Below are positions 7,498-60,779 of a DNA stretch of 64,000 nt, in pieces (the stretch's first letter is position 1; every line of letters begins with the position of its first letter). The stretch is from Antedon mediterranea (lineage: Eukaryota > Animalia > Echinodermata): NCBI RefSeq assembly GCF_964355755.1, contig NC_092673.1, forward strand, positions 17,543,648 to 17,607,647, written 5' to 3'. The position numbers and the translations under genes were made by a program. The notes under the pieces were generated by a model. The model had not been told where the DNA came from, searched no databases, and saw only the letters and a program-made list of their open reading frames with translations.

Positions 7498-7525
7498 GAT
7501 ATGGGAACAAAAAGTGGGTTTTTTT

Positions 7526-27094: not shown

Positions 27095-29505
27095 TTGATT
27101 GCCATGTTGATACTGAGACTATCTTACCTATTTATTGCCATGTTGATACTGAGACTATCTTACCTATTGATTGCCATGTTTATACTGAGACTATCTTACC
27201 TATTGATTGCCATGTTGATACTGAGACTATCTTACCTATTGATTGCCATGTTGATACTGAGACTATCTTACCTATTTATTGCCATGTTGATACTGAGACT
27301 ATCTTACCTATTGATTGCCATGTTGATACTGAGACTATCTTACCTATTGATTGCTATGTTTATACTGAGACTATCTTACCTATTGATTGCCATGTTGATA
27401 CTGAGACTATCTTACCTATTTATTGCCATGTTGATACTGAGACTATCTTACCTATTTATTGCCATGTTGATACTGAGACTATCTTACCTATTGATTGCCA
27501 TGTTGATACTGAGACTATCTTACCTATTGATTGCCATGTTTATACTGAGACTATCTTACCTATTGATTGCTATGTTTATACTGAGACTATCTTACCTATT
27601 GATTGCCATGTTGATACTGAGACTATCTTACCTATTTATTGCCATGTTTATACTGAGACTATCTTACCTATTTATTGCCATGTTTATACTGAGACTATCT
27701 TACCTATTTATTGCCATGTTTATACTGAGACTATCTTACCTATTGATTGCTATGTTTATACTGAGACTATCTTACCTATTGATTGCCATGTTGATACTGA
27801 GACTATCTTACCTATTTATTGCCATGTTTATACTGAGACTATCTTACCTATTTATTGCCATGTTTATACTGAGACTATCTTACCTATTGATTGCCATGTT
27901 AATACTGAGACTATCTTACCTATTTATTGCCATGTTTATACTGAGACTATCTTACCTATTGATTGCCATGTTGATACTGAGACTATCTTACCTATTGATT
28001 GCCATGTTTATACTGAGACTATCTTACCTATTTATTGCCATGTTTATACTGAGACTATCTTACCTATTGATTGCCATGTTGATACTGAGACTATCTTACC
28101 TATTTATTGCCATGTTGATACTGAGACTATCTTACCTATTGATTGCCATGTTTATACTGAGACTATCTTACCTATTTATTGCCATGTTTATACTGAGACT
28201 ATCTTACCTATTGATTGCCATGTTGATACTGAGACTATCTTACCTATTGATTGCCATGTTTATACTGAGACTATCTTACCTATTTATTGCCATGTTTATA
28301 CTGAGACTATCTTACCTATTGATTGCCATGTTGATACTGAGACTATCTTACCTATTGATTGCCATGTTGATACTGAGACTATCTTACCTCTTGATTACCA
28401 TGTTGATACTGAGACTATCTTACCTATTGATTGCCATGTTTATACTGAGACTATCTTACCTTTTGATTGCCATGTTTATACTGAGACTATCTTACCTATT
28501 GATTGCCATGTTTATACTAAGACTATCTTACCTATTGATTGCCATGTTTATACTGAGACTATCTTACCTATTTATTGCCATGTTTATACTGAGACTATCT
28601 TACCTATTGATTGCCATGTTTATACTGAGACTATCTTACCTATTTATTGCCATGTTTATACTGAGACTATCTTACCTTTTGATTGCCATGTTTATACTGA
28701 GACTATCTTACCTATTGATTGCCATGTTGATACGGAGACTATCTTACCTATTGATTGCCATGTTTATACTGAGACTATCTTACCTTTTGATTGCCATGTT
28801 TATACTGAGACTATCTTACCTATTGATTGCCATGTTTATACTGAGACTATCTTACCTATTGATTGCCATGTTGATACTGAGACTATCTTACCTATTGATT
28901 GCCATGTTGATACTGAGACTATCTTACCTATTGATTGCCATGTTTATACTGAGACTATCTTACCTACTGATTGCCATGTTTATACTGAGACTATCTTACC
29001 TATTGATTGCCATGTTGATACTGAGACTATCTTACCTATTGATTGCCATGTTTATACTGAGACTATCTTACCTATTGATTGCCATGTTTATACTGAGACT
29101 ATCTTACCTATTGATTGCCATGTTTATACTGAGACTATCTTACCTATTGATTGCCATGTTTATACTGAGACTATCTTACCTATTGATTGCCATGTTGATA
29201 CTGAGACTATCTTACCTATTTATTGCCATGTTGATACTGAGACTATCTTACCTATTGATTGCCATGTTTATACTGAGACTATCTTACCTTTTGATTGCCA
29301 TGTTTATACTGAGACTATCTTACCTATTTATTGCCATGTTTATACTGAGACTATCTTACCTATTGATTGCCATGTTTATACTGAGACTATCTTACCTATT
29401 GATTGCCATGTTTATACTGAGACTATCTTACCTATTGATTGCCATGTTGATACTGAGACTATCTTACCTATTGATTGCCATGTTGATACTGAGACTATCT
29501 TATCT
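27095..29505. repeat. 36-bp minisatellite, about 67 copies
   Basis: Unit attKattgccatgttKatactgagactatcttacct with two G/T variant sites. Confidence 0.98.
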
Positions 29506-29878
29506 ACTGTAACAAACAATATTATTTATGTAATTATTAGAATCAGGGACATTTCGGATCAGTCATAGAGGAAACAATTAAATAGTTTTTTCCTCCATAG
29601 ACCAAGATCCCACAATTAGGATATAAATGGTTGGTAGTTTGCAATAGTTATACAATTTTAAACGAATGATTTTTTAAACTGAATAATCAACTATTTTATT
29701 ATATGGTTTACAATTTTTATAAAAATTTTGATTTTCTCTTTGTGAAAAAAATTGGTCATACTTAAAATTGCAGTGTAAGGCAATAATTGTCCTTTTTAAG
29801 TGCTTATAACATCATGTAATTGTGCGTTATTTTTTTATGCTTACTATGGAATGACATATAATGCCTGCGTGTTAATAA

Positions 29879-40544: not shown

Positions 40545-42097
40545 AATTACATTTTTTTAAATATAAGAAAACGTTTAAAATATTTTGTTGCTCCTAATCT
40601 ATACTTTACATGGGTTAATGGAGATAATTTTGACACAATTTGATCTGTATATCACATGACTTTTAAGTTTAACCCAATGTCGTAACTCTTTGTATGGCAC
40701 TGGCTCTGCCCATAATTTGTTCGTTTACATTGGTTAATAGGAATTATGATATCTTCCTAACACTATCTTTGTTTATATGAAGATAGATAGGTAAACACGA
40801 TTTATATTTTCTATTTAATAGGCTAGCATGCAAGACTGATTGGGAAGTCATGTGACTCACAGAAGCAGTGACAATTATAAACACCCTATAGTCAAGTAGC
40901 GTCTGTTGATGTAGAGCTGTTCAGTTGGACTGATTTACCAGTGGATGGAGGATTGTTTCCAGGGTAGGGTACCAACAATTCTGTTGTTCAGATTCAGTTG
41001 TAGTGTGAGTTTTTATATTATTTATTTAATATTTAATTTGACTTACAGAATTGTGCTTTGTTTTATGACAATTACAGGAATAGCAATACTTTGTTTGGAA
41101 ATGTTGGTTTATGGCAACCCAGTTGCATCCATTGAAGTGTTTCTCAACTATTTTATTTTTACAGCAAAAATTGCAATACAATAAAATTACAGATTTTAAT
41201 TCGAAATTCAGAGGCTTAAAAGGTAATCTTGGTGAACACTACAAGGGTGATCACTATCTTTTGCTCAAATTCTGCCTATGTTATCACTTACCTTTTAGGA
41301 TTTTCATTTAATAGCACATAAATTGTTCAATAAACTTGTGTTAAAATGTTAATATCAAACGTACTAATGTCTGTTGTTGGAGAGTACAAAGGTCACAGAA
41401 GTTAGGCTGCTGAATATCTTGTAGTACTAAGTATATATTGAACGAAACATGTCTGACATGAAAATAAAAAAAGGTGTATTAGCCTGATAGTACAGTGATA
41501 CGCCCGTATTCTTAAACCGGACTTTAGTCGTAGTTTGAACTTTGACTTCAAAAAGTGTTAGTTCGAGCTACAGGCTCTAGACCCCTTGATTTCTATGCTA
41601 CAATTTACCCGATAAATATAGGCATATTTTGAACTTTAAAGGTCACTTTTTAAAATTGAAAAAATGGATTGACACAGTTATTGTGCATCGGTTTTTTGCA
41701 CGCAGTATTTTATTTATGCATTATGAAAAATGGAAAAAGTGGCTACCCTAAATCTGATTAAAATTGCCTCAAATGACGCTAGAACGCGTTGCTTCCAGGG
41801 GCTTCGCCATCTGGACCCCCACCGGGGGCCCTTGGCGGCCCCTCCCTGACACCCAGCATAGAGAGAGATTAACCAAATTATTAACCAAATAACTGATACG
41901 TTTTTCTGATACTCACAATTGCCTAGAGGGATGTTTTTGCTGTTTTTTTAGGGTATAAAGTATAGCGGCCAAACTGAATGGCAGCCATTTGTTGTGTATT
42001 AATTAAAGAAAAGTCATAATTGCCGTTTGGGAAAATGAATCCACAAAACAATGTTTCCAGTTGTTGATCTTTCAATCAATTATTATGAACAAAACAA

Positions 42098-42425: not shown

Positions 42426-42564
42426 CATTCATTTAATGCAAAGGTTTCTGTCTGATGGAATTATGTTTTACATTCATATTTTCAGAAGAGAATGTGTAGT
42501 CTTACTTTTACACTAGAAGCTATCGGCATTAAGAATTGTTAAATGAAGACACTGTATTTTTGCA

Positions 42565-45500
42565 ATGGAAAGGTACGTTTTTAACAATTATTTCAAACAA
42601 AAATAACCAGCTCCAATATGTGTTGATATTATTGAAATATGTAACTATTAAAAACAAATTAAAATGTTTGAATAGTTATATTGACATACATATATATAAC
42701 ATACTTTATAATCAGAATTTATAGTTCAAACAAAAAGAAAACACTTTGATTTTAAGATATTCTTTTGAGAAAAATACTTCAAACTTTCTTAAAAGATTAT
42801 AAAATCCAAAATTATTTCTTTCTTTCTTTAAAAATTATGAAATCATAAATATACAATTAAAGCGCTTATTCTCATTAAATATAATAATAATAATATTTCC
42901 ATCAATCATCATTCTCAATAAATACACGGGTATAAATGGATTATTTCTTACATTTTGACAGGAAACATTTGGTAGAAGCTTGGTCAAGGAATGATTTGAA
43001 AACAATTAAACAAATCTGTAAGACGCAACCAGGTCTTCTGAAATCTATCAATGAGGTATAAAAACAGATATATTTTTATAATATTATCAAAGAAGAAATT
43101 CTTTTCATTAAAGTTTAAAATTATAGAGGATGTAATTTTATTTAATAGTTTAAAGCTTTTTTACTTAATGAATTACAATTCTTTTGCATTATCACACTGA
43201 TGATGGAGGTATAACCTGCATATACTGATTAACCACATTAGGCTAAAAATAATAATATAGATACACACTGATGATGGAGGTATAACCTGCATGTACTGAT
43301 TAACCACATTAGGCTAAAAATAATAATATAAATACACACTGATGATGGAGGTATAACCTGCATATACTGATTAACCACATTATACACACTGATGATGGAG
43401 GTATAAACCTGCATGTACTGATTAACCACATTAGGCTAAAAATAATAATATAAATACACACTGATGATAGGGGTATAACCTGCATGCACTGATTAACCAC
43501 ATTAGGCTAAAAATAATAATATAAATACACACTGATGGGTATGGCAAGCCTCAGCTGTCTGGAGTATTCGAAATATTATATTATTAATAATGTGGTAAAC
43601 CATTCTATTTTGTTCTACTCATTTATTAATAATGATAATTATGATTATTTACCACAATATTTAGCAGCAATTGTTGTTGTTTGTATTGACAAAAAACAAA
43701 CAATTTCACATAATGTCTGTTGTCAATATTTATAAACTTTATTGTGATTCCTTTCCAGGATGGTGAAACTCCATTACATATATATCTGTGGAGTGGATAT
43801 CCACCTAACTTAGAAATAGTGACGTGTCTCATTCAGCATGGGGCACCAGTAGCATTGCAAAATAAGGTAATGTACAGGGATTTGCTGGTGTAATAGGCTA
43901 ACATTCTATAGATATGCTGTGGTAAACCATTCTATTTTGTTCTACTTATTTATTAATAATAATAATTATGATTATTTACCACTTTATTTAGTAGCAATTG
44001 TTGTTGTTTGTATTGACAAAAAACAAACAATTTCACATAATGTCTGTTGTCAGTATTTATAAACTTCATTATGATTCCTTTCCAGTATGGTGAAACTCCA
44101 TTACATTCATATCTGAGGAGTAGATATACACCTACCTTAGAAATAGTGACTTGTCTCATTCAGCATGGGGCACCAGTAGCATTGCAAAATAAGGTATTGT
44201 ACAGGGATTTGCTAGTGTAATAGGCTAACATTCTATAGATATGCTGTGGTAAACCATTCTATTTTGTTCTACTCATTTATTAATAATGATAATTATGATT
44301 ATTTACCACAACATTTAGCAGTAATTGTTGTTGTTTGTATTAACAAAAAACAAACAATTTTACATAATGTCTGTTGTCAGTATTTATAAACTTCATTATG
44401 ATTCCTTTCCAGAATGGTGACACTCTATTACATTCATATCTGTGGAGTGTACGTACACCTACCTTAGAAATAGTGACTTGTCTCATTCAGCATGGGGCAC
44501 CAGTAGCATTGCAAAATAAGGTATTGTACAGGGATTTGCTAGTGTAATAGGCTAACATTATATAGATCTGCTGAAGTAAACCATTCAGCAGTAATTGTTG
44601 TTGTTTGTATTTACCAAAAAAAAAACAATTTTACATAATGTCTGTTGTCAGTATTTATAAACTTCATTATGATTCCTTTCCAGAATGGTGACACTCTATT
44701 ACATTCATATCTGTGGAGTGTACGTACACCTACCTTAGAAATAGTGACTTGTCTCATTCAGCATGGGGCACCAGTAGCATTGCAAAATAAGGTATTGTAC
44801 AGGGATTTGCTAGTGTAATAGGCTAACATTATATAGATCTGCTGAAGTAAACCATTCAGCAGTAATTGTTGTTGTTTGTATTTACCAAAAAAAAAACAAT
44901 TTTACATAATGTCTGTTGTCAGTATTTATAAACTTCATTATGATTCCTTTCCAGAATGGTGACACTCTATTACATTCATATCTGTGGAGTGTACGTACAC
45001 CTACCTTAGAAATAGTGACTTGTCTCATTCAGCATGGGGCACCAGTAGCATTGCAAAATAAGGTATTGTACAGGGATTTGCTAGTGTAATAGGCTAACAT
45101 TATATAGATCTGCTGAAGTAAACCATTCAGCAGTAATTGTTGTTGTTTGTATTTACCAAAAAAAAAACAATTTTACATAATGTCTGTTGTCAGTATTTAT
45201 AAACTTCATTATGATTCCTTTCCAGAATGGTGACACTCTATTACATTCATATCTGTGGAGTGTACGTACACCTACCTTAGAAATAGTGACTTGTCTCATT
45301 CAGCATGGGGCACCAGTAGCATTGCAAAATAAGGTATTGTACAGGGATTTGCTAGTGTAATAGGCTAACATTATTTTCTATTTTGTTCTGGTTTACCACA
45401 TTATTTAGCAGTAATTTTTACTGTATTGTCTCATATTATGGTATATCTGCAGCACTGCAAAATAGGGTAATGTAGGCTTACAAAGAATTGTCAGGACAAT

Positions 45501-48500
45501 TTCACATTTTATTGTTATCAGTATTTATAAACTTCAACTTCAGTATCAATTAGCCTCCATATTAATCAATAGTATTACTACCTCAAAGAGTAGTATTATT
45601 TAATCAGACTTACAGATATAGAATTCTCAAGTGTTTGATTTTTTTCACATTTTTCTCTTTTTACACATAGCACATTCTAACAAGTTTGTTTTGATTTAGA
45701 TATTCATTTATAAGTCAACTATAATTGTAATGTGTTGTTGTTGTTTTAATATTTCATTTGTATCTGGATAGTATCCAAATATTATTTTCTTTGAAAGTTT
45801 ATAGTAAAACTATTTGTTGTTTTATATTATGGCTCAAACATTTTAACACATTTACCTACTGTTCCAAAGTAAACTTTTATTCAATTTATCTCTCTCTCTC
45901 TCAATGTTGAAGGCGGTAGACTATAAACGGCAGCGCTTAAGTTTTGGTTTGGATACAGGAGTTATAGGTGGCGCACTGTACAAGTTGATGTCATTTATTG
46001 GCAAATAGTAATTTCTATTCACGTCCTAATTTACAACCAATGTTAAAAAATAGTAAATCTACGTGTTATCACATGATGCTCTTTCATCCAATCTCTAGAT
46101 GGTAAATGTTTGAGCCATGACTGTATGTATGTGATGCGTATTAAAGTGTGTTATATTGTATATCAATAATTTCTCAAAAACTACTAAGTAACTACACCCA
46201 TTTTTTAATAGGATGGAAATACACCTGTCTCTGTTTTAGAAAGTAACAGGTGGATAGGGTACCAGAGAAAAATTGAAATTTTAAACTTCTTTAAAAGTAA
46301 GTGAAGTTTTAATTATTAAAATTTTGGAATCAACTAGTTTTCATTACAAACGATAAAGATTTGATTTTTTGTCCCAAATGAAGAAGACTGTCCAGATAAA
46401 GAAAATTAACATTTATGATATCATTCACAGGTTCAGATGGCAATAGATTAAATAATCCACTGGGATTGTAGTAAACATGGAAGTTGTGATATGTTGCAAG
46501 ATGTAAAAACCTTATTTTTTATGATTTGAAAATTGCAAATAAATTAGAAAAATTATTTTGCCATTACGATAAAAATACACAAAAATGCAAACTTTAAAAT
46601 TCCTTTGAATTAACAATATTGAATAAATTTGGCCACACTTTTTTTTTATGGAACGTCATTTTTCACATCAAATCAATCTCTTTATTCATCAATACATCAA
46701 AACAATTATACATAAACAAATTAAAGATGTGAAGATGAAAGGGACCTCCAAGAAACCCAAAGGGACTTGTGATAAAAGGACCACTATAAGCTAGTTACAA
46801 AAAAAACATACAAAAAATAAATTAATAAAATTAATAAAAATCCTGTATAGACAAATACACGGGATGCGCATTGTTAAGGAATATTTGAACTTTATTAATT
46901 GCATATAAATGTAAATGTAGAATATTTTTTTTTTAAATGTAATCTATTTTATATATAATGGTATTATTTAAAATATGTATTCGCAATCGAGGCAAACAAT
47001 TTACGATAGGAGGAGATAAATATTGAATTTAACAAGGCCATATAGATGTCTGCAGTCGCTTGCTCAAGTTAGTGTTTACCAACCGACCGACATAGTGAGT
47101 TGTAGAGTGGCGTTGCACGTGACTAAAAATCTAATTTTCTTGTTAATCCCATTTTTTGTTTCCACAATGAATGAATTTTCTTCACATACTTTAAGCCAGC
47201 TTAAGAATTCTATTTCTCTGTATGTAAAATTAAGCATCATACATAATGTATTTTACCTTGGCTCCTACAATTGTATTATCTTGCAACTTCTTATGCAAAT
47301 AGGCACAAAATAATAAGTAATATTTGAGCATAAACGCTTAAATAATTGTAAAAGTTGTTATAAATTAATGAGCTTTCAGTAGAGTACTTATACACAGAAT
47401 AATAGAATATTGCATTCATATTTTGTTTCTTTTTCTTCCCAACTTGTTGTTACTTTTTTCTGGGAGCCTAGGCTTAAAGTTTTATACTTTTAAGGTTTCC
47501 TTCCACACATACTATGTTTTATTAATTATTATCTTACATGTTTATATAATTATTATTTTATGTATTTTTAATATGTGTGAAGAATATTTATTCAATATCT
47601 ATTGAATATTGCATAAACGAATTAAATTTCAAATATTTATCCTTGGCTTGGTGTAGGCCTACTAAAAAAGGTTGAGAATACAGAACCAAAACTGATAGTA
47701 ATGTATGACAAAGTGAACAAACTTTTATAGTCTAAGGAACTTTCTTAGTCAATACATACAAGATTAAACCATTAGGTAAGAGTTCAAAATCTATTTCAAA
47801 GACCCTTTCCTTACAATTTTCGACGTTTTGTAAAAATAATGGAATATTACTTTAAAAACATTAAACCAGGTTATTCCTTGTCTTAGATGTACGTTTTATG
47901 GTAATTTATGATAAAATGAGAGAAAAAATGCACTACCTAAGTAGCTCGCAGTTTATTTATTATTATAAAGTTTATTAAAATCATTAATAAACTTATATTA
48001 TATATTTGATACTTTCTGATCGTACCAGACGTAACCATAGCCAGTGGAACAAAGCAATGATTTTTAACCAATAACGAATAATAAAAATAAAGCAATCAAT
48101 GTTTAAGGATAGTCTGCCTAATTCTGATCCGACAGCCACGCTGGGTGTGCTGTTTCCAATGCCTAAAATGAATCTTGAAAAACGTGTCTGTAAATGATCA
48201 ATTGGTGATAAATTCGAAAAGCCCCATGTCTCACTCCCGTAAATTAAAATTTGTAAAACTTTGTCAAAAATGTGTTTCCATATATTCTCTGGTAGGTATT
48301 GTGTTTTGCTAATAATTGATTGTAAATAGTACGTACGTTATTTGTTTTTTGACAATTGTGTTCAATTGTGTTATTCCACTGACCATTTGAATTGAAAACC
48401 ACTTCCAAGTAAGTATACGATTTAACAACTTCCATTTTAATGTTTATGTAATACCATTTTTCATATTTTCTTAATTTTTCATCTTTTTTAAATACCATTA

Positions 48501-51500
48501 TTTTTATTTGTTTACATTACACTAAGACGTGTCACAAAATATTTCCAATATAATTATTAAATGTTGTAAGCCTTTACTGTGTCTGCGAATAGTAATAAAT
48601 CAGCAGCATTATTACTTTCGTTATTTTGATTTAGCTAGTAATTCATAAATATATTAAATAGAGATGATGGCAGGGGTGACCCTTGTTGTATTCCAATTGA
48701 ACATTCAAATAGGAGCGTTAATGAGTTTCCTATTTTTACATGTGCTAATAATTGGAAACTAAATAATAATATATATGACGTCATATAATATTATTGACGC
48801 CTATTCTTAATTTTAATAATAGAAAATTATGCTTTATACTGTCAAGTGCACGTTTTAGATGAACGAAGCAACAAAATAGTCTACCCCTTTTTTTACGTAG
48901 ATATTTTTTAATTATCCTGTTAAGAATGAAAATATTATCTAATGTGCGGAATCCCTTGCGAAAACTTGATTGTTCTTATTAAATAATGTTATTGTTTTCA
49001 GTTAGTTATTCTAGTGTTAAGGATGTTTAAAAATATTTTGCCAAGAATTGGAATTAGAGAAATGCCCCTATATTAAATACTAGGCTAGACTTACCAAATA
49101 TTTATTTTGTTTTCAAATTTAGCGCCAGCTGAACCGCTGCTTCAATAGGCTAAAATAGTCCTTGGCTGTACTGCTAATAACTAATTGTACTGTATATTCA
49201 TTACATTGGTGGGGGGCGGGGGGCGGTGTTCTTCTAAACACCAAGCCCTTCAAAGTATAACTAAGCTCTACCAAGTGTATAAAGTGTATATTTTACAAAT
49301 ATTTATATATACAAACATTTAGAGTTTTTAATCAATTATGCAAGCAAGCAATTATGACACATTGTACATTCTAGGCTGATGTTTAAATTTTTTATTTTTT
49401 TAAATTAATATTTACAAAGTGTAGCGTACACACATAATGGGGAACTAACGACTGGGGACAGTGGGCACGTTTTCTGAGCGTGCTTTAGTAGGACCAGAAA
49501 AGCGCCCTTATTGTAAGCCTTTAAAGGTGCAATTCCAGGTCTATATTGGCAAAATTGTTTGACATCAGCCTAAACCATGGTGGGGCTCGAGTTATCTTTA
49601 TTGTGTTTTGACAAACAGGTATAAAAACAAAATTGATTACTGGTCATAAAACAGAATATAAATTAAAATATTCAAAAAGTTAATTCAAAGCATATTGAAA
49701 ACTTACGATAGATGTTTTTAATCGCATTTCCTACTGCCTAATGAATCATACCAGTTATTCATTTCAGGATTACTTTATTTTCACTTTACCCATTGAAACC
49801 ATGCTAATCAACCGTATGTTGCTAATTTCAACGATTTAGATTCAGGATCGCTGTCAAAAAATGTTGCATAACGTCTATATGTTTGGATGAGTTTGAGTTC
49901 CACAATTTTTATTAGGACATAATTTAAATTAATAACAGTAGTTGTTAACTGTATACATTGTAGTTAAAAATATACATTATTATTATTATTATATTATATT
50001 CAGAATGAATGATTGCTTGTACACAGTCACCCACAAGTGTTTGTAAGGCTTTGTATCACACAGAGCCTTTATATAACCTTATACCATTGAAAAAAAAAGC
50101 TATGACTTTTAATATAGTGTTTTTTATGAAAATTAAATATGTAATATTTTGGTTTTGTGCATTTTTTTAGATTTACCAAGTACTGTTGATGAGCAATTTC
50201 AAACACAATTTCAGAAACAGGCAAGTGACGAACAGAAAACAAAACTTCTTAAGCCAGAGAGTGGTAAGTTTAAGAATAAGAGCTGCTGTATGTTTTATGA
50301 TTGTATCTATATATAATTTAACAGAATTGTGATTAAAATGGGATTTCAGTAAAGAGAGAAGTAGACGCTAATGTTATTTAAAAAAACATTTCTGAGCGGT
50401 ACTGTAAAAAGGCGAAAAGTGTCCAACTGATAACAAATAACAAATGGAGAGATTTTATTTATCATAAATAAAACAAACAGTTGATTGTTTCCATTTAAAA
50501 TACTGTAATAATGCAATGAAGCTAGTTTGCAGATTTATGTGGCATGCTTGCTTGATTTTTGCTTGATTGTTGATTTTTAGGTTATATGCATTATCATGCG
50601 ATCACGCACGTACAACCTTTCTTTAATAATATCATCATATTTTATTCACTTTTCAACTCGAATTTGCGTTATACGAGCACGTCAAAAGTGACAGGCTACG
50701 CACGTGTAAGTTAACAAAATGGTAAAAATATGCTAAATTTTAAAAATAATATAGATCGTCAGAATGCTCGGGAACACATATTTTTTATTTCATTTTCTTG
50801 AAGTGTATGTATCATATGTATGATTTATTATGAAATTAAGAGTACAAAAGTTGATCAAGTCATCATTAATTGCATTTTAAATTTAAAAAAATTTATTTCG
50901 ACAATCAAAAAATTATGACATTTTCTTAGGCCGAAATAACAAACTTTAACTTTCTTCCTTCAAAATAAAAGTTCATATATTAAAGTTAAAAGTATATAGT
51001 TTGACAGTGCATGATTTTTTAACATTTTTAAAGATGTCATCATAGTAAAAAATACACGGAGGAATCTTTCTACAACTTTTAGTCAGTTGTGTATGGCTCG
51101 GTGGTCTGTGCTCGTGTCTATGGCATTCAAGGTACCAAGATCGAGTCTCATATTGGGAAACGAAATAATATTTTTTTTATTATCCATATTGTTTGTTAGT
51201 CATTTTATTTGTTAGTGTATAGATTATACACATAATTTATAATGAAATCTAGATAAAAAGTAAGTAATGTCTTTATTATTATGTAGTGGTTTATGACATT
51301 ATACGCAGAGGGATCTTTGATCGGATTGTGATACAGAATATTGTATTCGCATTAGCAAGGTCCTATATCTATATATAAATTTACGTAAGGGCAAAATTCG
51401 CGGTTTATTTCTAGAATTTATACTCAATGGTATATAAAGTTGGTTCGTACTTTCGGTACTCATTTTAACCATCTGATGTAACCCTGTTTACTAATTAAAT

Positions 51501-54500
51501 TGAGTTAAATAATTAGTTATTGACAATTAAAACAAATTCAGGTTCAACGATTTGCCCCAAATAGGGGTGTTTCGTGGTTGTGGTATACACTGTATAATGG
51601 ATGTCAATCTTAATAAATACCCACACACAATAATACGAGGATGCTTCGCATTTTCCTATCTCCTCCTCAATAATTGTTTTTAATAGCTGAAAACTGGTTG
51701 AACAGCTCGAGTACAGCATCATAATGTTGAAGATTTTCTTTAAAAAATACTATTTTGATAGATTTAATAAACGTTTATACAAATGTTTTGATCTGGGATA
51801 AATGGAACATTCCAATCTCTGTTCCACAAGTTTCTATTCCCTTAGGCGTCGTAAAGACAAGTACAGTCATAACAGAAATTCGATCCATTTTTTTTCAATC
51901 TGTGCGGATTACCAATAAAAAAAAAAACCAAAATTCATATCTTTAACAACGCATTAACAGGAATACTATCAAGTTTCCAACTCTTAACCAACGGAGGAAC
52001 TACTTTTATTGTATTTGTCTCTATAAATGTATCAATGTGTCATTTGGGTCCTTTCTCCTTTCTTTATTTGAATGAATATTCTTAAAAACGGATTTACCAT
52101 TTTATGGGCCCTCAACAAGACAAAACAACAAACAACAACAAAGAATTATAAAAATTAAAATAAAGATATGAACAAGATGATAATGACAAAGAAGTTTGTG
52201 TTAATAAGAATGATATTACTCTAACATAATAATTAGTATCATATTTTAACACAAAGAATATAATGCTGATTATTAAGATAAACATAAAGTGTGTAGTTTT
52301 GTTGTACTGTAGTTGAATTTCTAAAGCTGATTATAGATATAGAAAGTTATTATAATGTTTCACAAATCTTTCTGAAAACAATGATTTCAACAATAAATAT
52401 AGCATAGCATAGTTAAATGTAGACAGTGAACAATTTTATTCCCTGGTGGTAGTGTTTTCTCTGCTTTGGCCCTCCTCAGCACTCCACATTTTGCTGAAAC
52501 AAATAAAAATTGAAATTTACATCATTGTGTGAACAGGTGCCATGTTAAAATATATTAAATATAAATTAGACAAATTTCATATATATCTTGTTTTTAAAAT
52601 AGACTTATATATATATTATATAAAAATCATAGATAAAATCTCATTGATTAGATGATAAGTGAGAGTACCAATGCCTATTATTGTAGATAAAGGTTATATA
52701 TAATAATATGATACCATGATGATGATCAAGATATGATAATGACACTCGGGCTATGTTCAGACATAGCCTCACCAGCCTTTGTAACCTACACCAGTATAAA
52801 AATAGATAAATTATTATTATATGGTAGCATTATGAACATTAACAATTTTTGCCAAGTTGTGTCTTTTAATATTTCTTTTTATGAAAAATATGTGTAAAAG
52901 ATTTTGTATGTTACATTTTTTAGATTTACCAAGTCTTGTTAGTAAACAGTTTGAGAAACTAATGGTTGAAGAACAGAAAACAAAGCTTAAACCAGTGATT
53001 GGTGAGTTTAAGAATCGTATAAGGAGTTGTATGGTTCAATGTAACATATTGTGATTAAAATGGTATTTCAGTAGTGGACTTGTAGTAAGAATTTCATTCA
53101 TTTATTTTATCATATATTATATAATATACAAATTCTTATAATTGCGTGCAACTTCAATAGCTTAAATTGTCCTTGGCTGTACTGCTATGATTATAAGTTT
53201 CTCACTCATGGTTCAAAATTTGGCACAAAACATTTTCAATGAGTTGAAAGATTAAGAGAATAATTTAATTGGTCAGATGTTTTGTCTTATTCTGACGTAA
53301 TTGCACTGTATACTCAGTTCAATGAGAACACTTTGCGAACAAATTTAAAAGTATTTGACAGATTGGACTCAAACCCATGACCTCCAGATTACTAGCATTG
53401 CGTATATACCTCCAGACCACCGAGCTCAGTAGTATAGAGAGGTTTGAGTCCCATCCACACACTCATTATAGTGTAAATATCTTTTTAAATGGTTACATAT
53501 TATTTTAGTTACTGTTCATGTATTTATTACAACAGATGGCATGGTAATGATACCACAACCAAAGTTGGCTGCAATAATATTAAAAACAGGAAAAACTATT
53601 TTTGTTATAAAATTAAATAGAACTAACACTGTGCAATTCAAGTTGAAATAAATGAATTGAGGAAAATAGACAATCTTACATTGCTGTATATAAATTGTTC
53701 TGCTAGTTAACTTAATGACATGTTCAAATATAAGCTGTATTACTGTATCTACTACTGTACTGTTAATATAATCTTGACAATAAAGATGATTTGGTACTAT
53801 TTTTGTTAAGGAGTTATACTCTAAAGAGAGCTAACATTGTAACTTTGTCATGGAAGAAAGTATAATTGTATTATGAAGGAGATTGCAACAATTACTATAT
53901 AAACACAATTCAAATAATATTTCATTCTGCAGATCAAATGGAGTTAATTGTGGACTCTACAGGTGGAACTCTTCACCTTAAGGATGAAGACATCAAGTTG
54001 GAGATACAACCTGGAGCAATTGAAGAAGGAAAAACAGTTAAAATATCACTAGAAAATATTTTGGAGGAAACAGACATGCCTGTATTTCATCCACTTGAAT
54101 CAATAATATCACCTATTGTTAAATGTGGACCAGAAGGCACCATCTTCCACAAGCCCTGTTTACTGTCATTTCCACACAATGCTGTAAATGAAGAGTTTTG
54201 GGAATTCACTTTACTTTTTCAAAAATGCTCTCAAGATAAATGGAAAAAACTGACAGAAAGTAATGAAAAGGACATCAATTTTACATTAAAGAATGGTCGA
54301 TGTTTTATAAATTTAATTCACTTCAGTGGTTTTGCATTTATGGGTCGAATAAGAAACGTTTTTCATGCTAAGAAAAGTATAAAATTTGGAGTCTTTGGAA
54401 AGATGATTGTAAATGAATATCAGCTTCGAGTAAAATTTTGGATGCCGGAAAAACAGCAGGTCATTTTAAATTTGTTTAAATATTCATATTCTTTATTTCA

Positions 54501-57500
54501 AATCGTACTTACAGTGAAACACTGAATTACTGTAATTTTTACAATGTTAAAACATTTTAAAACTATTAAATTAAATTTTAATAGTAAGTAACACCATATA
54601 AAACTAAACTACTGTACACATAAATAACAGAAAAAAAATAAAGTTGCTGTGATTTTCAGCTTCCTAAAAAAATTCAGTTGCACTAAACAACACAAAAGAA
54701 ATTTAATGGAAAATCAGCCTACAATTTGTCTGAAATTGATGGCGAATTAAATACAGTAATTGTATAAAATCTTCAATACTTCAAAGAACTGCAGTTTTAC
54801 CACACTGCCGTCATTCTAAAAGCTGTATTTAGATTATTATTATTTAACTTTATTTATACTATATGTATAAATTTTATTGATTGGACTAATCATTATAAAT
54901 ACACTTAAAAAATGTAAACAACATTTTTAAACTTGAAGCAGATCACAAGTGCTTGAATTCAGAGCGGAATAGAAGATTCAGAGACATATGTACTGTACTC
55001 ATAAAACAGCCTATAGTTGATCAAAAATGTTCAGTTTAAAAAAATCTTGTCTGAATTTTAGGAGGTTGATAAAGAACAAGCATACCAGGGAGAGAAACTT
55101 TTAGAAGGAGGTACAGTACGGTCTTTGTATAAAGACTTGGAAATAAGTGTTGAAATACCAAATCAAGAATGGAGAATAGTGGATAAAAGAAAAAAAGTAA
55201 GAATATTTATTTTGTTTTTCTTTGTAATAATTAATAATTGAAAATTCTATCTATCTATACAAAATTTAATATCATCACAATGATTCCAATTAAACAGGAT
55301 ATTGAAAAAATCTCTAAACCCCACCTTAACATTTCTGAAATAAATAAAAAACTTGAAGTGAGTAAAAAACAATAAGAATTTGTTGATTATTGGTACTGTA
55401 CTACCAATGGTCTGAAAAAACCCATTAAACTAGGCCTACTAGACTCAAGCCTCATTTTTTGTTTATTACTCGATAGTTTTACTTGTAAATGTTTGAATTC
55501 AATTCAATTAAATTCATTTATTTTCCAGAAAGACATAAAAAACATATATTTATTTGTAAACACTTTTATTTTCATTTATCCGACTCATCGTCAGGGCTTA
55601 ATGTATATATATTACTGTATTTTCAATTGGATTTAATTGATTATGAAATTAAAATATAAGATTTTTAAATAAATTGGTTTTCTTGTTTGATTTTCCTGAA
55701 CTAGGGTAGGCTCCATCCTACTGGAAGATAACTGGTTCCCAAAAGATAGAGTTTTGTCATTTTGCGTGTGAATTAATGATTAGCTTACTTCTAACTATAG
55801 GCCTATGTCTGAATCGATTAATACTTTGCTCGGAGCGCTTATGTCAACTGAGTTGAGTTTGAGCCCAGGTTTTTGAGAATTACGGCCCACCACTGTTGAA
55901 ATGAAATTTCTTTGATTTGAAGATAACCTGGTTTGATATTGACCTTAATCTAATGACCTTACAGTATTTGAGTATTAAAAATCTGACTACAGTGCCCATC
56001 TACAAATTCAAAATCAGTAAAAACTAACTACTGTACTTTTTAAAATTTATCACCATACTTTCTTTTTAGATTATTCCTGCTGAATACCTATCGTTCGAAA
56101 TATCATATGAGAAATTTTTTTTAAAAAGAAAGAATTCATCCACAAATCTTCTAAAGGCAAAGTTATTGCTTTCACAAGATTCAAATTTTATTCCCGAAGT
56201 GGAAGTGGTTTGTAAGTACAATTTAAGTAGCAAAAATCTACATATAAAACACATTATAATTTATAAAGTACATTGTTCTTTTTGAAAACTATTGAATCTG
56301 TGATCTTGGACATGTATCCTAATTAAACCACAAATCATATTTTTTTTCCAGGTGATATTGGAACATTGGTTTCAAGCCAAAGTATGTATTTTCAGTAGTA
56401 ACTGTTTATATTATATATTTCCTTCATGAAAAACTAATAATTCGTCCATCCAAAATAGAGCAACTTTTGTTTTAGTTAAATTTTTAGTAACATAAAAAGA
56501 GATTGTTTGCATGAGGTACAGTATATTTTTTTGTTTTTAGTCAGAATTCAAATTAACATGCTACATTCTTCACATGCAAAAATAATGTTGTTATAACCAC
56601 TTGAATGTATTGTTTGTTACAGGTAATGTTGTACCATCAAGATCAAATTCAGGTATAATTATTATATTTTTATGTTCCAATTTTTTTTTTGTACAATGAT
56701 GGTGACAGTGAATGGATTAACATCAATAATCTAAATCAACAGTATTAATTATAAAAGAAAGTGTGTATTAGTCATAACAGGGACCAGTAAGTAAGTATAT
56801 CAAAATAAAGAAATTTAAGTAAACCATTCAAAATCATTGTAATTAATTATGGGTAAAAAGACATTTATTAACACACAAGAAGAATAGGCCTACTTCTTCA
56901 TATAATTCAAAGAAACCTAATAGAATTATCAACTGTTTCATTCCAACTTTTCAAAATAAATCATTTTAATACAGTTTTTTTTATATGAGTGTGCAAATGT
57001 AATTGTTTATTTTTTAATGAAAATTGGTAATTTAGTGAATAACTAGAGGGTACTCCGAGAGTACAAACCTCCGCCTACTGTAAAATTCCCCTACATAAAA
57101 TTTTCCCGGAAAATATATATAGTTCTAAGTGTAAATAGGCTAACTGCACACTACAAAGTTGTGGATGAGAGTTTGGTGTAATGGTTATGTATCCAGCCTC
57201 TCACAGTTGAGATCGCTGGTTCAAGTCCCACTGAAGTTATTTTTTTTTAATTATTATTTTTTTATTTCTTTTTTTGTTTTGTTTTTTGTGGACCTTAATG
57301 ATCTTTGACCCTGACCCTTCAAAATTTAACCACAATTATATGATGAGTCATTGATCATTGTGGCTAAGTTTGGTGAGATTTGGATAAAAACTGTGGTCTC
57401 TAGGCAGTAAAATAGTTTTTTGTTAGTTGTGACCTTGAACTATGACCTTTTCCCCTCAAATTCAAACTCGTCCGAGCTTTTGAGGAATAGATCATTGTAG

Positions 57501-58536
57501 CCAAATTTGGTGAGATTCGGATAAAAACTGTGGCCTCCAGGCTGTTCACAGACACACACACACACAAACACACAGGGGTGAAAACCTCCATGGCGGAGGT
57601 AATAAAATAGTATTACTCAAAAGATAATGCTACTTAAATCTATTATAAGCAAATTTAAAAGGTTTAGCTCTTTAATAATTAAAACAAAATTGCACACATG
57701 AATGCATTTCAACTTGTAAAGATTTGTTTTTACAATCTATATATAAATTATGGTTAATTCTGACATAGTTGAGGACAATGGAAAAACTTCGGTATAAATC
57801 TAGAGAACCATTCGGGTACAACCAGTGGAGGGTGCGCGAGCGAACCCTCTAGTAGTGATAATTGTAATTGTAATAAAGAGGACTACTTTTTTCTTTTTGC
57901 AGTCACTGTAAATCCATGGCAAGTAAGGTTCAACAAGTTGAAACATGATCTTAGTCTAGTCTATGTTGGTGATAAATTTCTCTTACTGAGATGCTGTCTC
58001 TTTGACCACATAGATCTACATCACCTTACTGATCCAGGTAGCATCGCACATTACCTATTTAACAAACTCCATGAAAAGCGTTATATCACACCTACTAATG
58101 TCAGTCTATTGTTAGACATTGCTAAAGTATCAGATTTGAATGATGTTGAAATTCTTATAAATCAGTATGTGATTGACAACAAGGTTCCAAACACTGATGA
58201 AGAAAAACTTTCACCATACAGGTCAAAATTGTGTGAGGCATTGAAGCAATTTGACCAAAATACTTTAAATGGTGTAATTGCTTTCTATGGATTGGATTCA
58301 ATGAGAATGCAATTGCCAACCATTTGGGATTTAGTGTTTCACCTGGAGAGAACTGGAAAATTAGTAGAAGAATCAGAAAGGAAGATTTTTGCTGAGCGTC
58401 TTGGAACAATTGCAAACAATATACTATTAACGGTATGTATTTGGTAAATTAAACATTTTTTTTATAAAAAAAAAACCCACAAAAATGCCATTCACTACCA
58501 ACCTGTTTTTTCCTACAGGTACTTGCTGATGAATGA
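42565..58536 (+). CDS. spliced gene 2: ankyrin-repeat / ZU5 / UPA-like / tandem DED-like protein, about 805 aa
   Basis: Exons, all AG/GT and phase-compatible: 42565-42572, 42962-43055, 43759-43866, 44086-44193, 44413-44520, 44684-44791, 44955-45062, 45226-45333, 46212-46296, 50171-50263, 52924-53001, 53933-54459, 55062-55196, 56070-56211, 56352-56381, 56623-56652, 57903-58432, 58519-58536 (TGA). Sum 2418 nt, open throughout. Start and last exon are less certain. Confidence 0.85.
43194..43535. repeat. about 71-bp intronic tandem repeat, about 5 copies
   Basis: acactgatgatggaggtataacctgcatRtactgattaaccacattaggctaaaaataataatata... Confidence 0.9.
43759..45333 (+). CDS. six tandem 108-nt ankyrin-repeat exons of gene 2 (exon+intron units of 327, 327, 271, 271, 271 bp)
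   Basis: DGETPLHIYLWSGYPPNLEIVTCLIQHGAPVALQNK; YGETPLHSYLRSRYTPTLEIV...; 4 x NGDTLLHSYLWSVRTPTLEIV.... Matches ankyrin consensus GxTPLH...LEIVxxLxxxGA; ttccag acceptors and aag|gta donors. Confidence 0.93.
48100..48760 (-). pseudogene. degenerate non-LTR retrotransposon RT fragment (intronic)
   Basis: Minus-strand remnants GIQQGSPLPSSLFNIFMN, LLLFAD and MVFKK...YTYLEVVF, with stops and frameshifts. Confidence 0.7.
53360..53428 (-). repeat. tRNA-derived SINE-like head
   Basis: Minus strand gagctcggtggtctggagg...ctagtaatctggaggtcatgggtttgagtcc has A-box and B-box-like motifs but no good cloverleaf; similar heads at ~51092 and ~57170. Confidence 0.45.
53933..54459 (+). CDS. ZU5-domain exon of gene 2, with HFS motif and start of UPA-like region
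   Basis: VDSTGGTLHL..IKLEIQPGAI...IISPIVKCGPEGTIFHKPCLLSFPHNA..W is the ZU5 signature; FINLIHFSGF with HFS at 54319-54327. Confidence 0.93.
57042..57603 (-). mobile_element. HINE/DINE-1-like element in an intron of gene 2
   Basis: aactagagggtactccgagagtacaaacctccgcc ... (ca)n ... aacctccatggcggaggtaat: stem-loop, subTIR acctccgcc/ggcggaggt, microsatellite and tgacctt repeats; contains a tRNA-like segment at 57165-57240. Confidence 0.75.
57903..58432 (+). CDS. tandem death-effector-domain-like exon of gene 2
   Basis: FNKLKHDLS...LRCCLFDHI...YLFNKLHEKRYITPTNVSLLLDIAKV...LINQY followed by SPYRSKLCEALKQF...IWDLVFHLERTGKL. Both fit the DED pattern (LFxxLExxxxI..N..LL; SPYR between tandem DEDs). 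Confidence 0.75.
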
Positions 58537-58560: not shown

Positions 58561-59770
58561 GTACCATGTGAGACAATGAAGAAAGTAATTTACCATTACC
58601 ATGTAAACCATTGCCATGTGAGACAATCTAGCAACTACCATTGCCGTGTGAAAAAATCAAGCACGTACCATTGCCATGTGAGACAATCTAGCAACTACCA
58701 TTACTGTGTGAAAAAATCAAGCAAGTACCATTGCCATGTGAGACAATCTAGCAACTACCAGTACTGTGTGAGAAAATCAAGCAAGTACCATTGCCATGTG
58801 AGACAATCTAGCAACTACCATTATCATGTGAGAAAATCAAGCAAGTACCATTGCCATGTGAGACAATCTAGCAACTACCATTATCATGTGAGAAAATCAA
58901 GCAAGTACCATTGCCATGTGAGACAATCTAGCAACTACCATTATCGTGTGAAAAAATCAAGCAAATACCATTGCCATGCGAGACAATCTAGCAACTACCA
59001 TTACTGTGTGAAAAAATCAAGCAAGTACCATTGCCATGTGAGACAATCTAGCAACTACCATTATCATGTGAGAAAATCAAGCAAGTACCATTGCCATGTG
59101 AGACAATCTAGCAACTACCATTATCGTGTGAGAAAATCAAGCAAGTACCATTGCCATGTGAGACAATCTAGCAACTACCATTACCGTGTGAAAAAATTAA
59201 GCAAGTACGGTACCATTGCCATGTGAGACAATCTAGCAACTACCATTATCGTGTGAAAAAATCAAGCAAATACCATTGCCATGCGAGACAATCTAGCAAC
59301 TACCAGTACTGTGTGAGAAAATTAAGCAAATACCATTGCCATGTGAGACAATCTAGCAACTACCATTACTGTGTGAGAAAATTAAGCAAGTACCATTGCC
59401 ATGTGAGACAATCTAGCAACTACCAGTACTGTGTGAGAAAATTAAGCAAGTACCATTGCCATGTGAGACAATCTAGCAACTACCAGTACTGTGTGAGAAA
59501 ATCAAGCAAGTACCATTGCCATGTGAGACAATCTAGCAACTACCATTATCGTGTGAGAAAATCAAGCAAGTACCATTGCCATGTGAGACAATCTAGCAAC
59601 TACCAGTACTGTGTGAGGCAATCTAGCAACTACCATTATCATGTGAGGAAATCTACCTAAAAGTACCATTACCATGTGAAACAATCAAGCTAGTACCATC
59701 GAGTGACAATCAAGCAACTACAATTATTGTGTGTGACAAGCAAGTACCATTACTATGTGACAAGCAAATG
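58561..59770. repeat. 60-bp (2 x 30-bp) tandem repeat, about 18 copies with degenerate edges
   Basis: gtaccattgccatgtgagacaatctagcaa-ctaccattaYYRtgtgaRaaaatcaagcaa. Confidence 0.95.
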
Positions 59771-60586
59771 CCACTGACTGATAAAATCAAGTGAGTACCA
59801 TAAATACTGTGTGAGGTTTAAAAAATGCCACCAATCTTCTATCAGTACTGTAAATCACAACGCAAACAAATTGACCAATTAAAAACAAATTTATTATTAA
59901 ATTATTATGATCAATTCGCTTGCATTGCGGTTTACGCCCTTGCGATGCGTCGTATTGAGAAATAAGAATGTTTCCAGTCACTTTGAACAAACATTTCGTT
60001 AGATCAAGTATAAAAATAAATGGTCTGAACAACTTGCATTCAGTCTTATGTTTTTAGACTTTTACTAGTTACCAAGGTTAGGTTATAATAAGATTTTTCA
60101 ACAAAATGTTCATATTAGTGTATAGTGAATATAATAATCAAATTTCAAAACCGTTCAGTAGATTAAGTAAAGATTAAGCAATAATTTCTTCATGAAGAAC
60201 TCCTTGTCACCATTTACAGCAAAGAAACTGTAAAAAGACATTCCTAAGTAAAGTGCCATGTTTAAATAAATGCCTATAAAGTACAGAAATAGGATCATAA
60301 CTAATTATTGTGTTAATTTTAGGCAGTAGTAGTGAAGATGAAAGTGAGGGCACACCATTGAGTCAAAGTTACTAGAGTACATTTAATGTCTAATCTTAAG
60401 TTTAAGAATAAAACACATTAGGTATTAATTGTTTTTTCTTGTTTCTAGAGCTGAATATAGATAAACCACTAAAAAATTATATTCATAACCATATTCTTAA
60501 AATTTCAAGATAATTTATGATTCAAATGATTGCTATATTATACTGAATTCATTACATGATATGAAAACCTGTTTTTCTTCATATAG

Positions 60587-60770: not shown

Positions 60771-60779
60771 AAGTCATAT

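What the first reader, a model, noticed from the sequence alone, without database searches (positions are those of the whole stretch)
43759..45470. Natural DARPin-like cassette: one-repeat-per-exon array with non-synonymous changes confined to the binding face
Seen: six 108-nt phase 0-0 exons duplicated with their introns. Exon 1 vs 2 has 8 nucleotide differences, 7 in amino-acid-changing codons and 1 synonymous. Exon 2 vs 3 has 8 differences, all in amino-acid-changing codons. All amino-acid changes fall in codons 1-17 (D/Y/N, E/D, P/L, I/S, W/R, G/R/V, Y/R, P/T, N/T), while codons 18-36 are invariant. Exons 3-6 appear identical, and a decayed 3' piece of a seventh lies at ~45425-45470. Established: the beta-turn residues flanking the G of GxTPLH and the end of helix 1 form the ankyrin binding surface randomised in DARPins. 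Inference: diversifying selection on a recognition surface, with copy-number change and frame-neutral exon skipping generating a receptor repertoire.
Basis: partly seen in the sequence, partly recalled or inferred. Interest (0 to 1): 0.88.

Follow-up and report, generated by a model that had tools for sequence, protein, structure and literature searches.

The report
Feather-star ankyrin-cassette death-domain sensor gene
A feather-star gene carries six one-exon ankyrin repeats whose amino-acid differences cluster in and beside the usual binding surface, and these likely feed a predicted self-cleaving cell-death signalling tail, which makes it a likely fast-diversifying intracellular sensor, though its ligand, its splicing and its role are untested.

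Summary
The counts are right: six 108-nt phase 0-0 ankyrin exons, exons 3-6 identical, all amino-acid changes in codons 1-17, and a relic seventh piece. The exons are the unannotated 5' part of an open 805-aa model: N-cap, 6 ANK, C-cap, ZU5, UPA-like, tandem DED-like. Its last 526 aa equal an Antedon mediterranea RefSeq protein. The ZU5 keeps the His-Phe-Ser self-cleavage motif of PIDD1, and all 8 distinct ZU5 copies examined keep [HS]-F-[SCT]. Paralogues join the same repeats to Roc-COR-DED and vary at the same codons.

Selection for diversity is probable but modestly supported. 13 non-synonymous to 1 synonymous is not significant (p=0.11). Amino-acid changes in codons 1-17 run 4.7 times the intron rate (window-scan p=0.009). 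'Confined to the DARPin face' is overstated: 3 of 9 variable codons are DARPin-randomised positions, 4 lie in an inserted helix-helix loop, and one is a framework Pro. These positions vary in most ankyrins. Exon skipping, copy-number polymorphism and the ANK-to-ZU5 splice are not shown.

The design is known from fungal HIC-ANK NLRs and brown-algal exon-per-repeat ROCOs. This scan noted similar sea-urchin ANK-ZU5-UPA-death genes on other DNA.

The parts
42565..42572 (+). predicted first coding exon (ATG, phase 2 donor)
   Evidence: the first 34 aa of the model match RefSeq paralogue P0010 at 32 of 34
42962..43055 (+). N-terminal capping-repeat exon (phase 2-0)
   Evidence: helices 2-11 and 15-24 in the model of P0010
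43759..43866 (+). ankyrin exon 1 (36 aa, phase 0-0)
44086..44193 (+). ankyrin exon 2
44413..44520 (+). ankyrin exon 3 (Pro-to-Leu in the TPLH motif)
44684..44791 (+). ankyrin exon 4, identical to exon 3
44955..45062 (+). ankyrin exon 5, identical to exon 3
45226..45333 (+). ankyrin exon 6, identical to exon 3
43591..44586 (+). 327-bp exon+intron units, 3.0 copies, 94% matches
44352..45374 (+). perfect 271-bp exon+intron array, 3.8 copies; intron 56 nt shorter than in the 327-bp units
45419..45474 (+). decayed 3' piece of a further ankyrin exon with donor; contigs of runs X2, X5 and X6 also cover it
46212..46296 (+). C-terminal capping-repeat exon (phase 0-1)
   Evidence: 19 of 28 aa identical to the C-cap of P0011
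50171..50263 (+). linker exon 1 (phase 1-1)
   Evidence: in RefSeq P0002; 24 of 30 aa identical to the segment that follows the C-cap in P0011
52924..53001 (+). linker exon 2, similar to linker exon 1
   Evidence: in P0002
53933..54459 (+). ZU5 domain and start of the UPA-like domain
   Evidence: Pfam ZU5 E=5e-20; UNC5B 3g5b E=1e-10 over residues 9-166
54319..54327 (+). His-Phe-Ser, predicted self-cleavage motif at the end of ZU5
   Evidence: motif as described for PIDD1 in PMC9162469 (passages)
55062..55196 (+). UPA-like exon
   Evidence: Pfam UPA E=6.5e-5, below cut-off, in paralogue P0003; no Pfam hit on this exon alone
56070..56211 (+). UPA-like exon
56352..56381 (+). 30-nt linker exon
   Evidence: in P0002
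56623..56652 (+). 30-nt linker exon
   Evidence: in P0002
57903..58432 (+). tandem DED-like exon
   Evidence: Pfam DED E=0.066 here and 2e-11 in paralogue P0009; best fold matches are caspase-8/cFLIP/FADD DEDs, all weak
58519..58536 (+). last coding exon up to the TGA stop
   Evidence: same end as RefSeq P0002

Best explanation
The six exons are tandem copies of one ankyrin exon-plus-intron unit, and they likely form the sensing end of a cytosolic ANK-ZU5-UPA-DED-DED protein that is predicted to cut itself like PIDD1 and would signal through its death-effector domains. Shown: unit structure, copy identity, an open 805-aa model with canonical splice sites, the domains, the His-Phe-Ser motif, and paralogues with the same repeats. 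Inferred steps: (1) unequal crossing-over and conversion add, drop and homogenise whole units without breaking frame, which keeps helix 2 and the inter-repeat linker uniform; (2) selection favours change at the beta-turn (codons 1, 3), helix 1 (codons 8, 11, 12) and an extended helix 1-helix 2 loop (codons 13-17, also length-variable among paralogues), which alters what the repeat stack binds; (3) the protein cuts between Phe466 and Ser467, the 339-aa UPA-DED-DED piece stays held until the ankyrin part is engaged or degraded, and it then oligomerises and recruits a DED adaptor or caspase. The repertoire is most likely germline: many paralogues and alleles, with ANK cassettes joined to Roc-COR-DED or to ZU5-UPA-DED tails.
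For: Gene model open over 18 exons, all 17 introns GT-AG. The last 526 aa equal RefSeq XP_071948765.1. RefSeq paralogue P0011 joins the same ANK repeats, C-cap and linker and goes on into a Roc domain. P0024 is ANK x8-Roc-COR-DED and P0073 is ANK x6-Roc; P0005 is Roc-COR-DED-ZU5 plus a tail homologous to the window's UPA-like and DED-like exons. Rate test: introns 16 changes in 219 sites; codons 1-17 13 non-synonymous in 37.5 sites (4.7x, Fisher p=3e-5, 3e-4 collapsed; scan-corrected p=0.009); 13:0 N:S in that half p=0.018 (0.034 collapsed); codons 18-36 0 changes in 44 non-synonymous sites against 3.2 expected, p=0.04. Replication at protein level: 6 paralogous repeats differ at 0.68 of codons 1, 3, 8, 11, 12 against 0.088 of the last 19 residues; P0024 0.64 v 0.19 and P0073 0.72 v 0.21. 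The model of P0010 (pLDDT 87.7) puts codons 5-12 in helix 1 and the following codons in the loop before helix 2. [HS]-F-[SCT] is kept at the aligned site in 10 of 10 ZU5 rows examined (8 distinct ZU5 domains, two rows being isoform duplicates), whereas UNC5B has DQL there. No membrane segment in the model (max KD19 1.28). Precedent: PMC4986451, PMC3341825, PMC9162469 (passages).
Against: Only three exon types and 14 changes; the classical N:S test is not significant (p=0.105), and the whole-exon excess drops to p=0.058 when adjacent changes are collapsed. The variable positions are generic: in 32 of 146 other ankyrin proteins with enough 33-aa repeats the same codons differ at a median 0.71, and fast divergence of young repeats is general (PMC5120217, passages). 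No DNA of paralogues was available, so their dN/dS is untested. RefSeq starts the ZU5 gene at another first exon near 50005 and leaves the ankyrin exons out; no protein with these exact repeats was found; no annotated protein seen here joins ANK directly to ZU5. No spliced joint stood among the 15 of 27 joints listed. The model of the tail is poor (pLDDT 40.6) and the DED fold matches are weak (E>=0.03; Z<=7.0). Exons 3-6 carry a framework Pro-to-Leu change and score under the Pfam cut-off. No ligand, cleavage, expression or immune data.
Confidence: 0.5

Rival explanations
1. Ordinary young ankyrin array: concerted evolution keeps the units alike, purifying selection holds the framework, and the tolerant surface and loop positions drift under relaxed constraint; the protein is a scaffold or adaptor without selection for diversity.
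For: The same positions are the most variable in unrelated ankyrins. N:S is not significant. Relaxed selection on new repeats is general (PMC5120217). A framework Pro is lost in exons 3-6.
Against: Drift predicts at most the neutral rate, but codons 1-17 run 4.7 times the intron rate with 0 synonymous changes. The contrast between variable codons and the second half is 7.7-fold in paralogous repeats against at most 4.4-fold in the 7 homogeneous control arrays. Outer-helix surface positions that vary in controls (about 0.45) are nearly fixed here.
Confidence: 0.25
2. The ankyrin exons are an orphan or decaying 5' remnant of an ANK-ROCO paralogue that lost Roc-COR; they are not spliced to the ZU5 gene, and their variation is inherited or imported from working paralogues by conversion.
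For: RefSeq leaves them out. P0011, P0024 and P0073 all lead from ANK into Roc. No Roc or COR trace was found in the window. Broken DED exons lie on both sides, at 41162-41406 and 60586-60773.
Against: All ankyrin, cap and linker exons are open with intact splice sites and matching phases. The C-cap-to-linker join is used in P0011. The RefSeq first exon ends at a weak donor. Codons 18-36 show no amino-acid change (p=0.04).
Confidence: 0.15
3. The four identical units are partly an assembly expansion, so the true gene has fewer repeats.
For: Zero differences over 752 compared bases (perfect period 44352-45374). No contig spans the array.
Against: The 163-nt intron differs from the 219-nt introns by a deletion and several substitutions, so at least one such unit, and two exons around it, must be real. 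The array is only about 1 kb in a 36-Mb record, and longer imperfect tandem arrays are resolved in the same window. It would not affect exons 1-3.
Confidence: 0.06
4. Individual-level diversification: exon skipping or somatic unit gain and loss creates a receptor repertoire within one animal.
For: All six exons are phase 0-0, so skipping keeps the frame. Alternative splicing of repeat exons is reported in brown-algal ROCOs (PMC11378527, passages).
Against: No skipping joint was listed (contigs only, part of the table cut). With three exon types, four of six copies identical, skipping gives few distinct surfaces. Somatic recombination has not been shown in the algal case either, per the passage read.
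Confidence: 0.04

Closest known systems
Highly internally conserved (HIC) ANK/TPR/WD repeats of fungal NLRs (Podospora; PMC4986451 and PMC13449251, passages read)
   Same: Near-identical ankyrin repeats with variation at the inner helix and hairpin/loop, joined to cell-death effector domains; repeat number differs among family members (6 here, 8 in P0024, 6 in P0073).
   Different: Animal gene; each repeat is its own exon copied with its intron; no NACHT/NB-ARC; signalling tail is ZU5-UPA-DED-like here and Roc-COR-DED in paralogues; repeat-number polymorphism between individuals not tested.
[quoted passage not shown]
   Same: One repeat per equal-length exon, diversifying residues, multigene family with broken copies, ROCO GTPase in paralogues.
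   Different: Ankyrin rather than LRR/TPR; DED outputs; this copy has no Roc-COR; no inverted exons seen; alternative splicing not shown.
PIDD1 (LRR-ZU5-ZU5-UPA-DD), NLRP1/CARD8 FIIND, UNC5/ankyrin ZU5-UPA-DD module (PMC9162469, passages read)
   Same: N-terminal repeat stack, ZU5 ending in His-Phe-Ser, UPA-like domain, C-terminal death fold.
   Different: Ankyrin instead of LRR, one ZU5, tandem DED-like domains instead of DD or CARD, multi-copy and fast-changing; cleavage untested.
DARPins (designed ankyrin repeat proteins)
   Same: N-cap, near-identical internal repeats, C-cap; same fold (TM 0.7-0.8 to DARPin structures for paralogue P0010); codons 1, 3 and 11 match randomised positions (numbering recalled).
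   Different: 36-aa repeat with a 3-residue insertion between the helices that carries 4 of the 9 variable codons; three DARPin-randomised positions fixed; no evidence of a library within one cell or animal.
DAPK1-like ANK-Roc-COR-death-fold proteins of invertebrates (unnamed clusters, scores 0.83 or less, leads only)
   Same: Paralogues P0024, P0011 and P0073 have ANK then Roc (P0024 also COR and DED).
   Different: No kinase domain found in these paralogues; the window's copy lacks Roc-COR altogether.

Membership tests
Ankyrin repeat (PF00023) | G-x-T-P-L-H motif and helix-loop-helix-hairpin fold | tested here: met
   Exons 1 and 2 above the Pfam cut-off, exon 3 at 18.1 bits; model and fold search of paralogue P0010
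HIC repeat sensor domains (fungal NLR definition) | over 85% identity over at least 100 aa between repeats | tested here: met
   Exons 3-6 identical over 144 aa; exon 1 v 2 83% and 1 v 3 78%; threshold from PMC4986451
HIC repeat sensor domains (fungal NLR definition) | positive selection at binding-face codons | tested here: inconclusive
   4.7x intron rate in codons 1-17, but N:S p=0.105 on three sequence types
HIC repeat sensor domains (fungal NLR definition) | repeat-number polymorphism among individuals | not testable with these tools
   Only short-contig data; identical units collapse
NLR | NACHT or NB-ARC domain | tested here: not met
   No such Pfam hit in the exons scanned or in P0002; the 805-aa model leaves no room for one
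ROCO | Roc-COR tandem | tested here: not met
   Roc and COR parts of P0011 and P0005 have no tblastn match in the window; met by paralogue P0024
PIDD1-like self-cleaving ZU5-UPA-death-fold proteins | ZU5 domain ending in His-Phe-Ser | tested here: met
PIDD1-like self-cleaving ZU5-UPA-death-fold proteins | UPA domain after ZU5 | tested here: inconclusive
   Alignment to UNC5B runs past ZU5; Pfam UPA only in paralogue P0003 and under cut-off
PIDD1-like self-cleaving ZU5-UPA-death-fold proteins | C-terminal death-fold domain | tested here: inconclusive
   DED-like by homology to P0009 and by weak fold matches; not a DD as in PIDD1
PIDD1 orthologues | N-terminal LRRs and two ZU5 domains | tested here: not met
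   Ankyrin repeats and one ZU5
PIDD1-like self-cleaving ZU5-UPA-death-fold proteins | actual autoproteolysis | not testable with these tools
   needs expression of the protein
Exon-shuffled repeat receptors (brown-algal type) | one repeat per equal-length, same-phase exon | tested here: met
Exon-shuffled repeat receptors (brown-algal type) | splice variants with different repeat combinations | tested here: inconclusive
   No such joint among those listed; one run only guessed to be RNA

The most novel reading that the evidence does not exclude
Feather stars have an undescribed multigene family of intracellular innate sensors in which exon-sized ankyrin cassettes with hypervariable binding residues are swapped among genes and plugged into either a Roc-COR GTPase switch or a PIDD/NLRP1-type self-cleaving ZU5-UPA switch, both ending in tandem DEDs: an animal counterpart of fungal HIC-NLRs and algal exon-shuffled ROCOs.
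Probability: 0.3. Interest if true: 0.75.

Novelty: new variant of a known kind. Interest (0 to 1): 0.5.

Why it matters
If true, it adds a class of variable intracellular receptors to deuterostome innate immunity that standard NLR and TLR surveys miss, and that current annotation splits into fragments. It would give a testable case of ankyrin sensors coupled to a self-cleaving ZU5-UPA-DED output, and a natural ankyrin scaffold that uses an extended helix-helix loop as a variable element. The diversification principle itself is known from fungi and brown algae, and this locus alone gives only modest statistical support.

Tried and rejected
No whole genome is held, so paralogue DNA, copy counts and family-wide dN/dS could not be obtained. 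A scan of metagenome contigs with an exon motif found 0 matches. Sequencing runs: 10 listed, no holder on record as RNA; this says nothing on expression. laid 4 of the 10 runs (X2, X5, X6, X9; contigs only) on 42450-46400. X2 gave 1240 records, 604 fitting two places and 107 under 90% alike, which fits many related copies, but depth is not a copy number and no piece spans the array. X5, only guessed to be RNA, has higher summed depth in exon bins than in the next intron bins (303 v 1.0; 163 v 1.1); the tool warns against ranking by depth, so I do not count it. Only 40 of 324 variant rows and 15 of 27 joints were shown, too few for an N:S count; of those shown, 43833/44160 is synonymous (codon 25) and 44179 changes codon 32. 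The joint 44256-45376 in X5 and X6 could reflect a longer last intron rather than fewer units, so I rejected it as proof of copy-number change. The C-cap-to-linker splice could not be checked on reads. The AlphaFold model of P0002 is mostly unreliable, so ZU5 and UPA folds were not tested structurally; the window's own spliced protein was not folded, paralogue P0010 stood in for it. Atlas hits for P0011 were all under 0.9. Literature: searches listed no paper on a crinoid ANK-ZU5 or ANK-ROCO family; the library lacks most subscription papers and I read passages only (PMC11378527, PMC4986451, PMC8229355, PMC3341825, PMC8195603, PMC9162469, PMC5120217, PMC13449251), no supplements. Rejected: CpG-driven hotspot (the 13 changes are of mixed kinds); neutral import from diverged paralogues as sole cause (it would bring synonymous changes, 0 seen in codons 1-17); NLR, ROCO or PIDD1 membership of this copy.
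Full report
Observation. The six 108-nt exons are at the stated coordinates, each flanked by AG and GT, phase 0-0 and open. The array is two 327-bp units followed by a perfect 271-bp period from 44352 to 45374. The relic at 45419-45474 is real (0 of 2000 shuffles). Exons 1, 2 and 3 score 28.8, 24.1 and 18.1 bits against Pfam Ank (cut-off 21.1).

The gene. Linking exons by splice sites and phase gives an open 805-aa model over 18 exons with 17 GT-AG introns: start (42565), N-cap, six ankyrin repeats, C-cap (46212), two similar linker exons, ZU5 (53933), two UPA-like exons, two 30-nt exons, a tandem DED-like exon (57903) and a stop at 58534-58536. The last 526 aa are identical to RefSeq XP_071948765.1 of the feather star Antedon mediterranea. 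That record starts at another first exon near 50005 with a weak donor and leaves the ankyrin exons out; the search with the repeats found no protein with these exact repeats. So the ANK-to-ZU5 join is my inference. It rests on matching phases, on the first 34 aa matching paralogue P0010 at 32 positions, and on paralogue P0011 running from the same repeats through a homologous C-cap (19 of 28) into the homologous linker (24 of 30).

The family. Three close paralogues (P0010, P0011, P0012; 76-80% to the repeat) lie on a record of the same length as P0002. P0011 continues into Roc. Two more distant Antedon proteins came from the representative search: P0024, ANK x8-Roc-COR-DED, and P0073, ANK x6-Roc. 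P0005 has Roc-COR-DED-ZU5 and a tail homologous to the window's UPA-like and DED-like exons, and is 66% identical to P0024 over 736 columns. No Roc or COR trace lies in the window. The family therefore mixes ANK, Roc-COR, ZU5-UPA and DED modules, and this copy goes from ANK to ZU5 without the GTPase. All these proteins are automatic models, several visibly partial.

Is the variation selected? There are three exon types and a minimum of 14 changes, 13 non-synonymous and 1 synonymous. With 75% of sites non-synonymous this gives p=0.105. The co-duplicated introns give a better neutral yardstick: 16 changes in 219 aligned sites (7.3%). Whole-exon non-synonymous rate is 2.2 times that (p=0.023; 0.058 with adjacent changes collapsed). 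Codons 1-17 run 4.7 times (p=3e-5; 3e-4 collapsed), and a scan that allows for picking the region afterwards gives p=0.009. That half has 13 non-synonymous and 0 synonymous changes (p=0.018; 0.034 collapsed), which argues against neutral import of a diverged tract. Codons 18-36 have 0 amino-acid changes against 3.2 expected (p=0.04). The region is confirmed by sequences not used to choose it: 6 complete paralogous repeats (a seventh, cut short, was dropped) differ at 0.68 of codons 1, 3, 8, 11, 12 and at 0.088 of the last 19 residues, and their helix-helix loop varies from 4 to 9 residues in frame. P0024 and P0073 show the same pattern on their own frameworks, less sharply (0.64 v 0.19; 0.72 v 0.21). 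Against: these codons are the most variable in ankyrins generally (median 0.71 in the 32 of 146 control proteins that had four or more distinct 33-aa repeats), and young repeats diverge fast in general (PMC5120217, passages). What stands out here is the frozen second half: the contrast is 7.7-fold in paralogues against at most 4.4-fold in the 7 homogeneous controls. Introns may be constrained or converted, which would inflate the ratio. My reading is that diversifying selection is more likely than not but not proven.

Is it the DARPin face? In the model of P0010 (pLDDT 87.7) codons 5-12 are helix 1, then a loop, then helix 2; the fold matches DARPins and tankyrase repeats. Alignments to ankyrins and DARPins put a 2-3 residue insertion between the helices. 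With the recalled DARPin numbering (randomised 2, 3, 5, 13, 14, 33), codons 1, 3 and 11 are randomised positions, and codons 12, 34 and 36 are too but are fixed in this gene. Codon 8 is on helix 1 and varies in natural ankyrins. Codons 13, 14, 15 and 17 are in the extended loop, and codon 5 is the framework Pro (Leu also in 2 of 8 repeats of P0024). A review passage confirms only that DARPin randomised positions lie on the concave face (PMC8229355). So the variation is in and beside the binding face, not confined to it.

The output end. The ZU5 ends in His-Phe-Ser at 54319-54327, residues 465-467 of the model. PIDD1 cuts itself at this tripeptide, with Ser, Cys or Thr as nucleophile in related proteins and Ser in place of His in NLRP1 and CARD8 (PMC9162469, passages). 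All 10 ZU5 rows aligned (8 distinct domains) carry H-F-S, H-F-C, H-F-T or S-F-T there, while UNC5B has D-Q-L. Conservation within exactly the allowed set suggests a working cleavage site, but it is untested. The last exon is DED-like: 40% identical to P0009, which has a clear Pfam DED, and its best structural matches are caspase-8, cFLIP, FADD and PEA-15 DEDs, all weak. An eLife survey describes expansions of DED-bearing, fast-evolving immune-type proteins in sessile marine invertebrates including echinoderms, for TRADD-N proteins rather than this family (PMC8195603, passages).

Copy number and skipping. Not shown. Contig data from four runs hold many related records but cannot count identical units, and no splice joint was among those listed. 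The short intron differs from the long ones by a deletion and several substitutions, so at least one short unit is real; whether there are four needs long reads. With four of six exons identical, skipping would give little new specificity; the diversity seen lies between paralogues.

Comparison and verdict. It works like fungal HIC-ANK NLR sensor domains (PMC4986451, PMC13449251) and is built like brown-algal exon-per-repeat ROCOs (PMC3341825, PMC11378527), with a PIDD1-like tail. It is not an NLR, a ROCO or a PIDD1 orthologue by the defining domains. That animal ankyrin genes often have one repeat per exon is recalled, not checked. Six searches listed no paper on this crinoid family. Earlier notes of this scan describe sea-urchin ANK-ZU5-UPA-death genes with variable faces (unchecked). 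Verdict: real feature, new variant of a known kind, interest 0.5.

Noticed in passing
window 41162-41406 (+): Broken DED-like exon relic just upstream of the ankyrin gene (tblastn to P0009 E=7e-5, P0005 E=6e-4; stops and frame change), probably the end of a decayed neighbouring paralogue.
   Followed up: partly
window 60323-60367 and 60586-60773 (+): Second, broken 3' module: an acidic linker exon and a DED-like exon 81-83% identical to P0001 residues 611-652 and 749-772, with the part between missing, followed by a 98-bp tandem array. Its phase would fit as an alternative last exon after the UPA-like exons.
   Followed up: partly
window 42962-43055 and 46212-46296: The caps also differ from paralogues mainly at the end of helix 1 and the following loop; the only 2 differences from P0010 in the first 34 aa are adjacent residues there.
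   Followed up: partly
window 4677-5033 (+): 119-codon open frame with two hydrophobic stretches, like the last exon of a membrane protein; no search was run.
   Followed up: no
window 18950-20579 (-): Several open frames that look like gag, protease and integrase pieces of an LTR retrotransposon, by eye from the translations; not scanned.
   Followed up: no
window 62316-63999 (-) and 47996-48975 (-): Reverse-transcriptase-like frames of non-LTR retroelements, by eye from the translations; not scanned.
   Followed up: no
window 5512-10121, 25264-29506, 58607-59760: Long minisatellites (62, 101, 30, 36 and 60 bp units); the 36-bp array is open for over 800 codons in two frames.
   Followed up: no
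proteins P0003, P0006, P0009: Some ZU5/DED paralogues carry hydrophobic stretches that look like membrane anchors, unlike the window's model (by eye).
   Followed up: no
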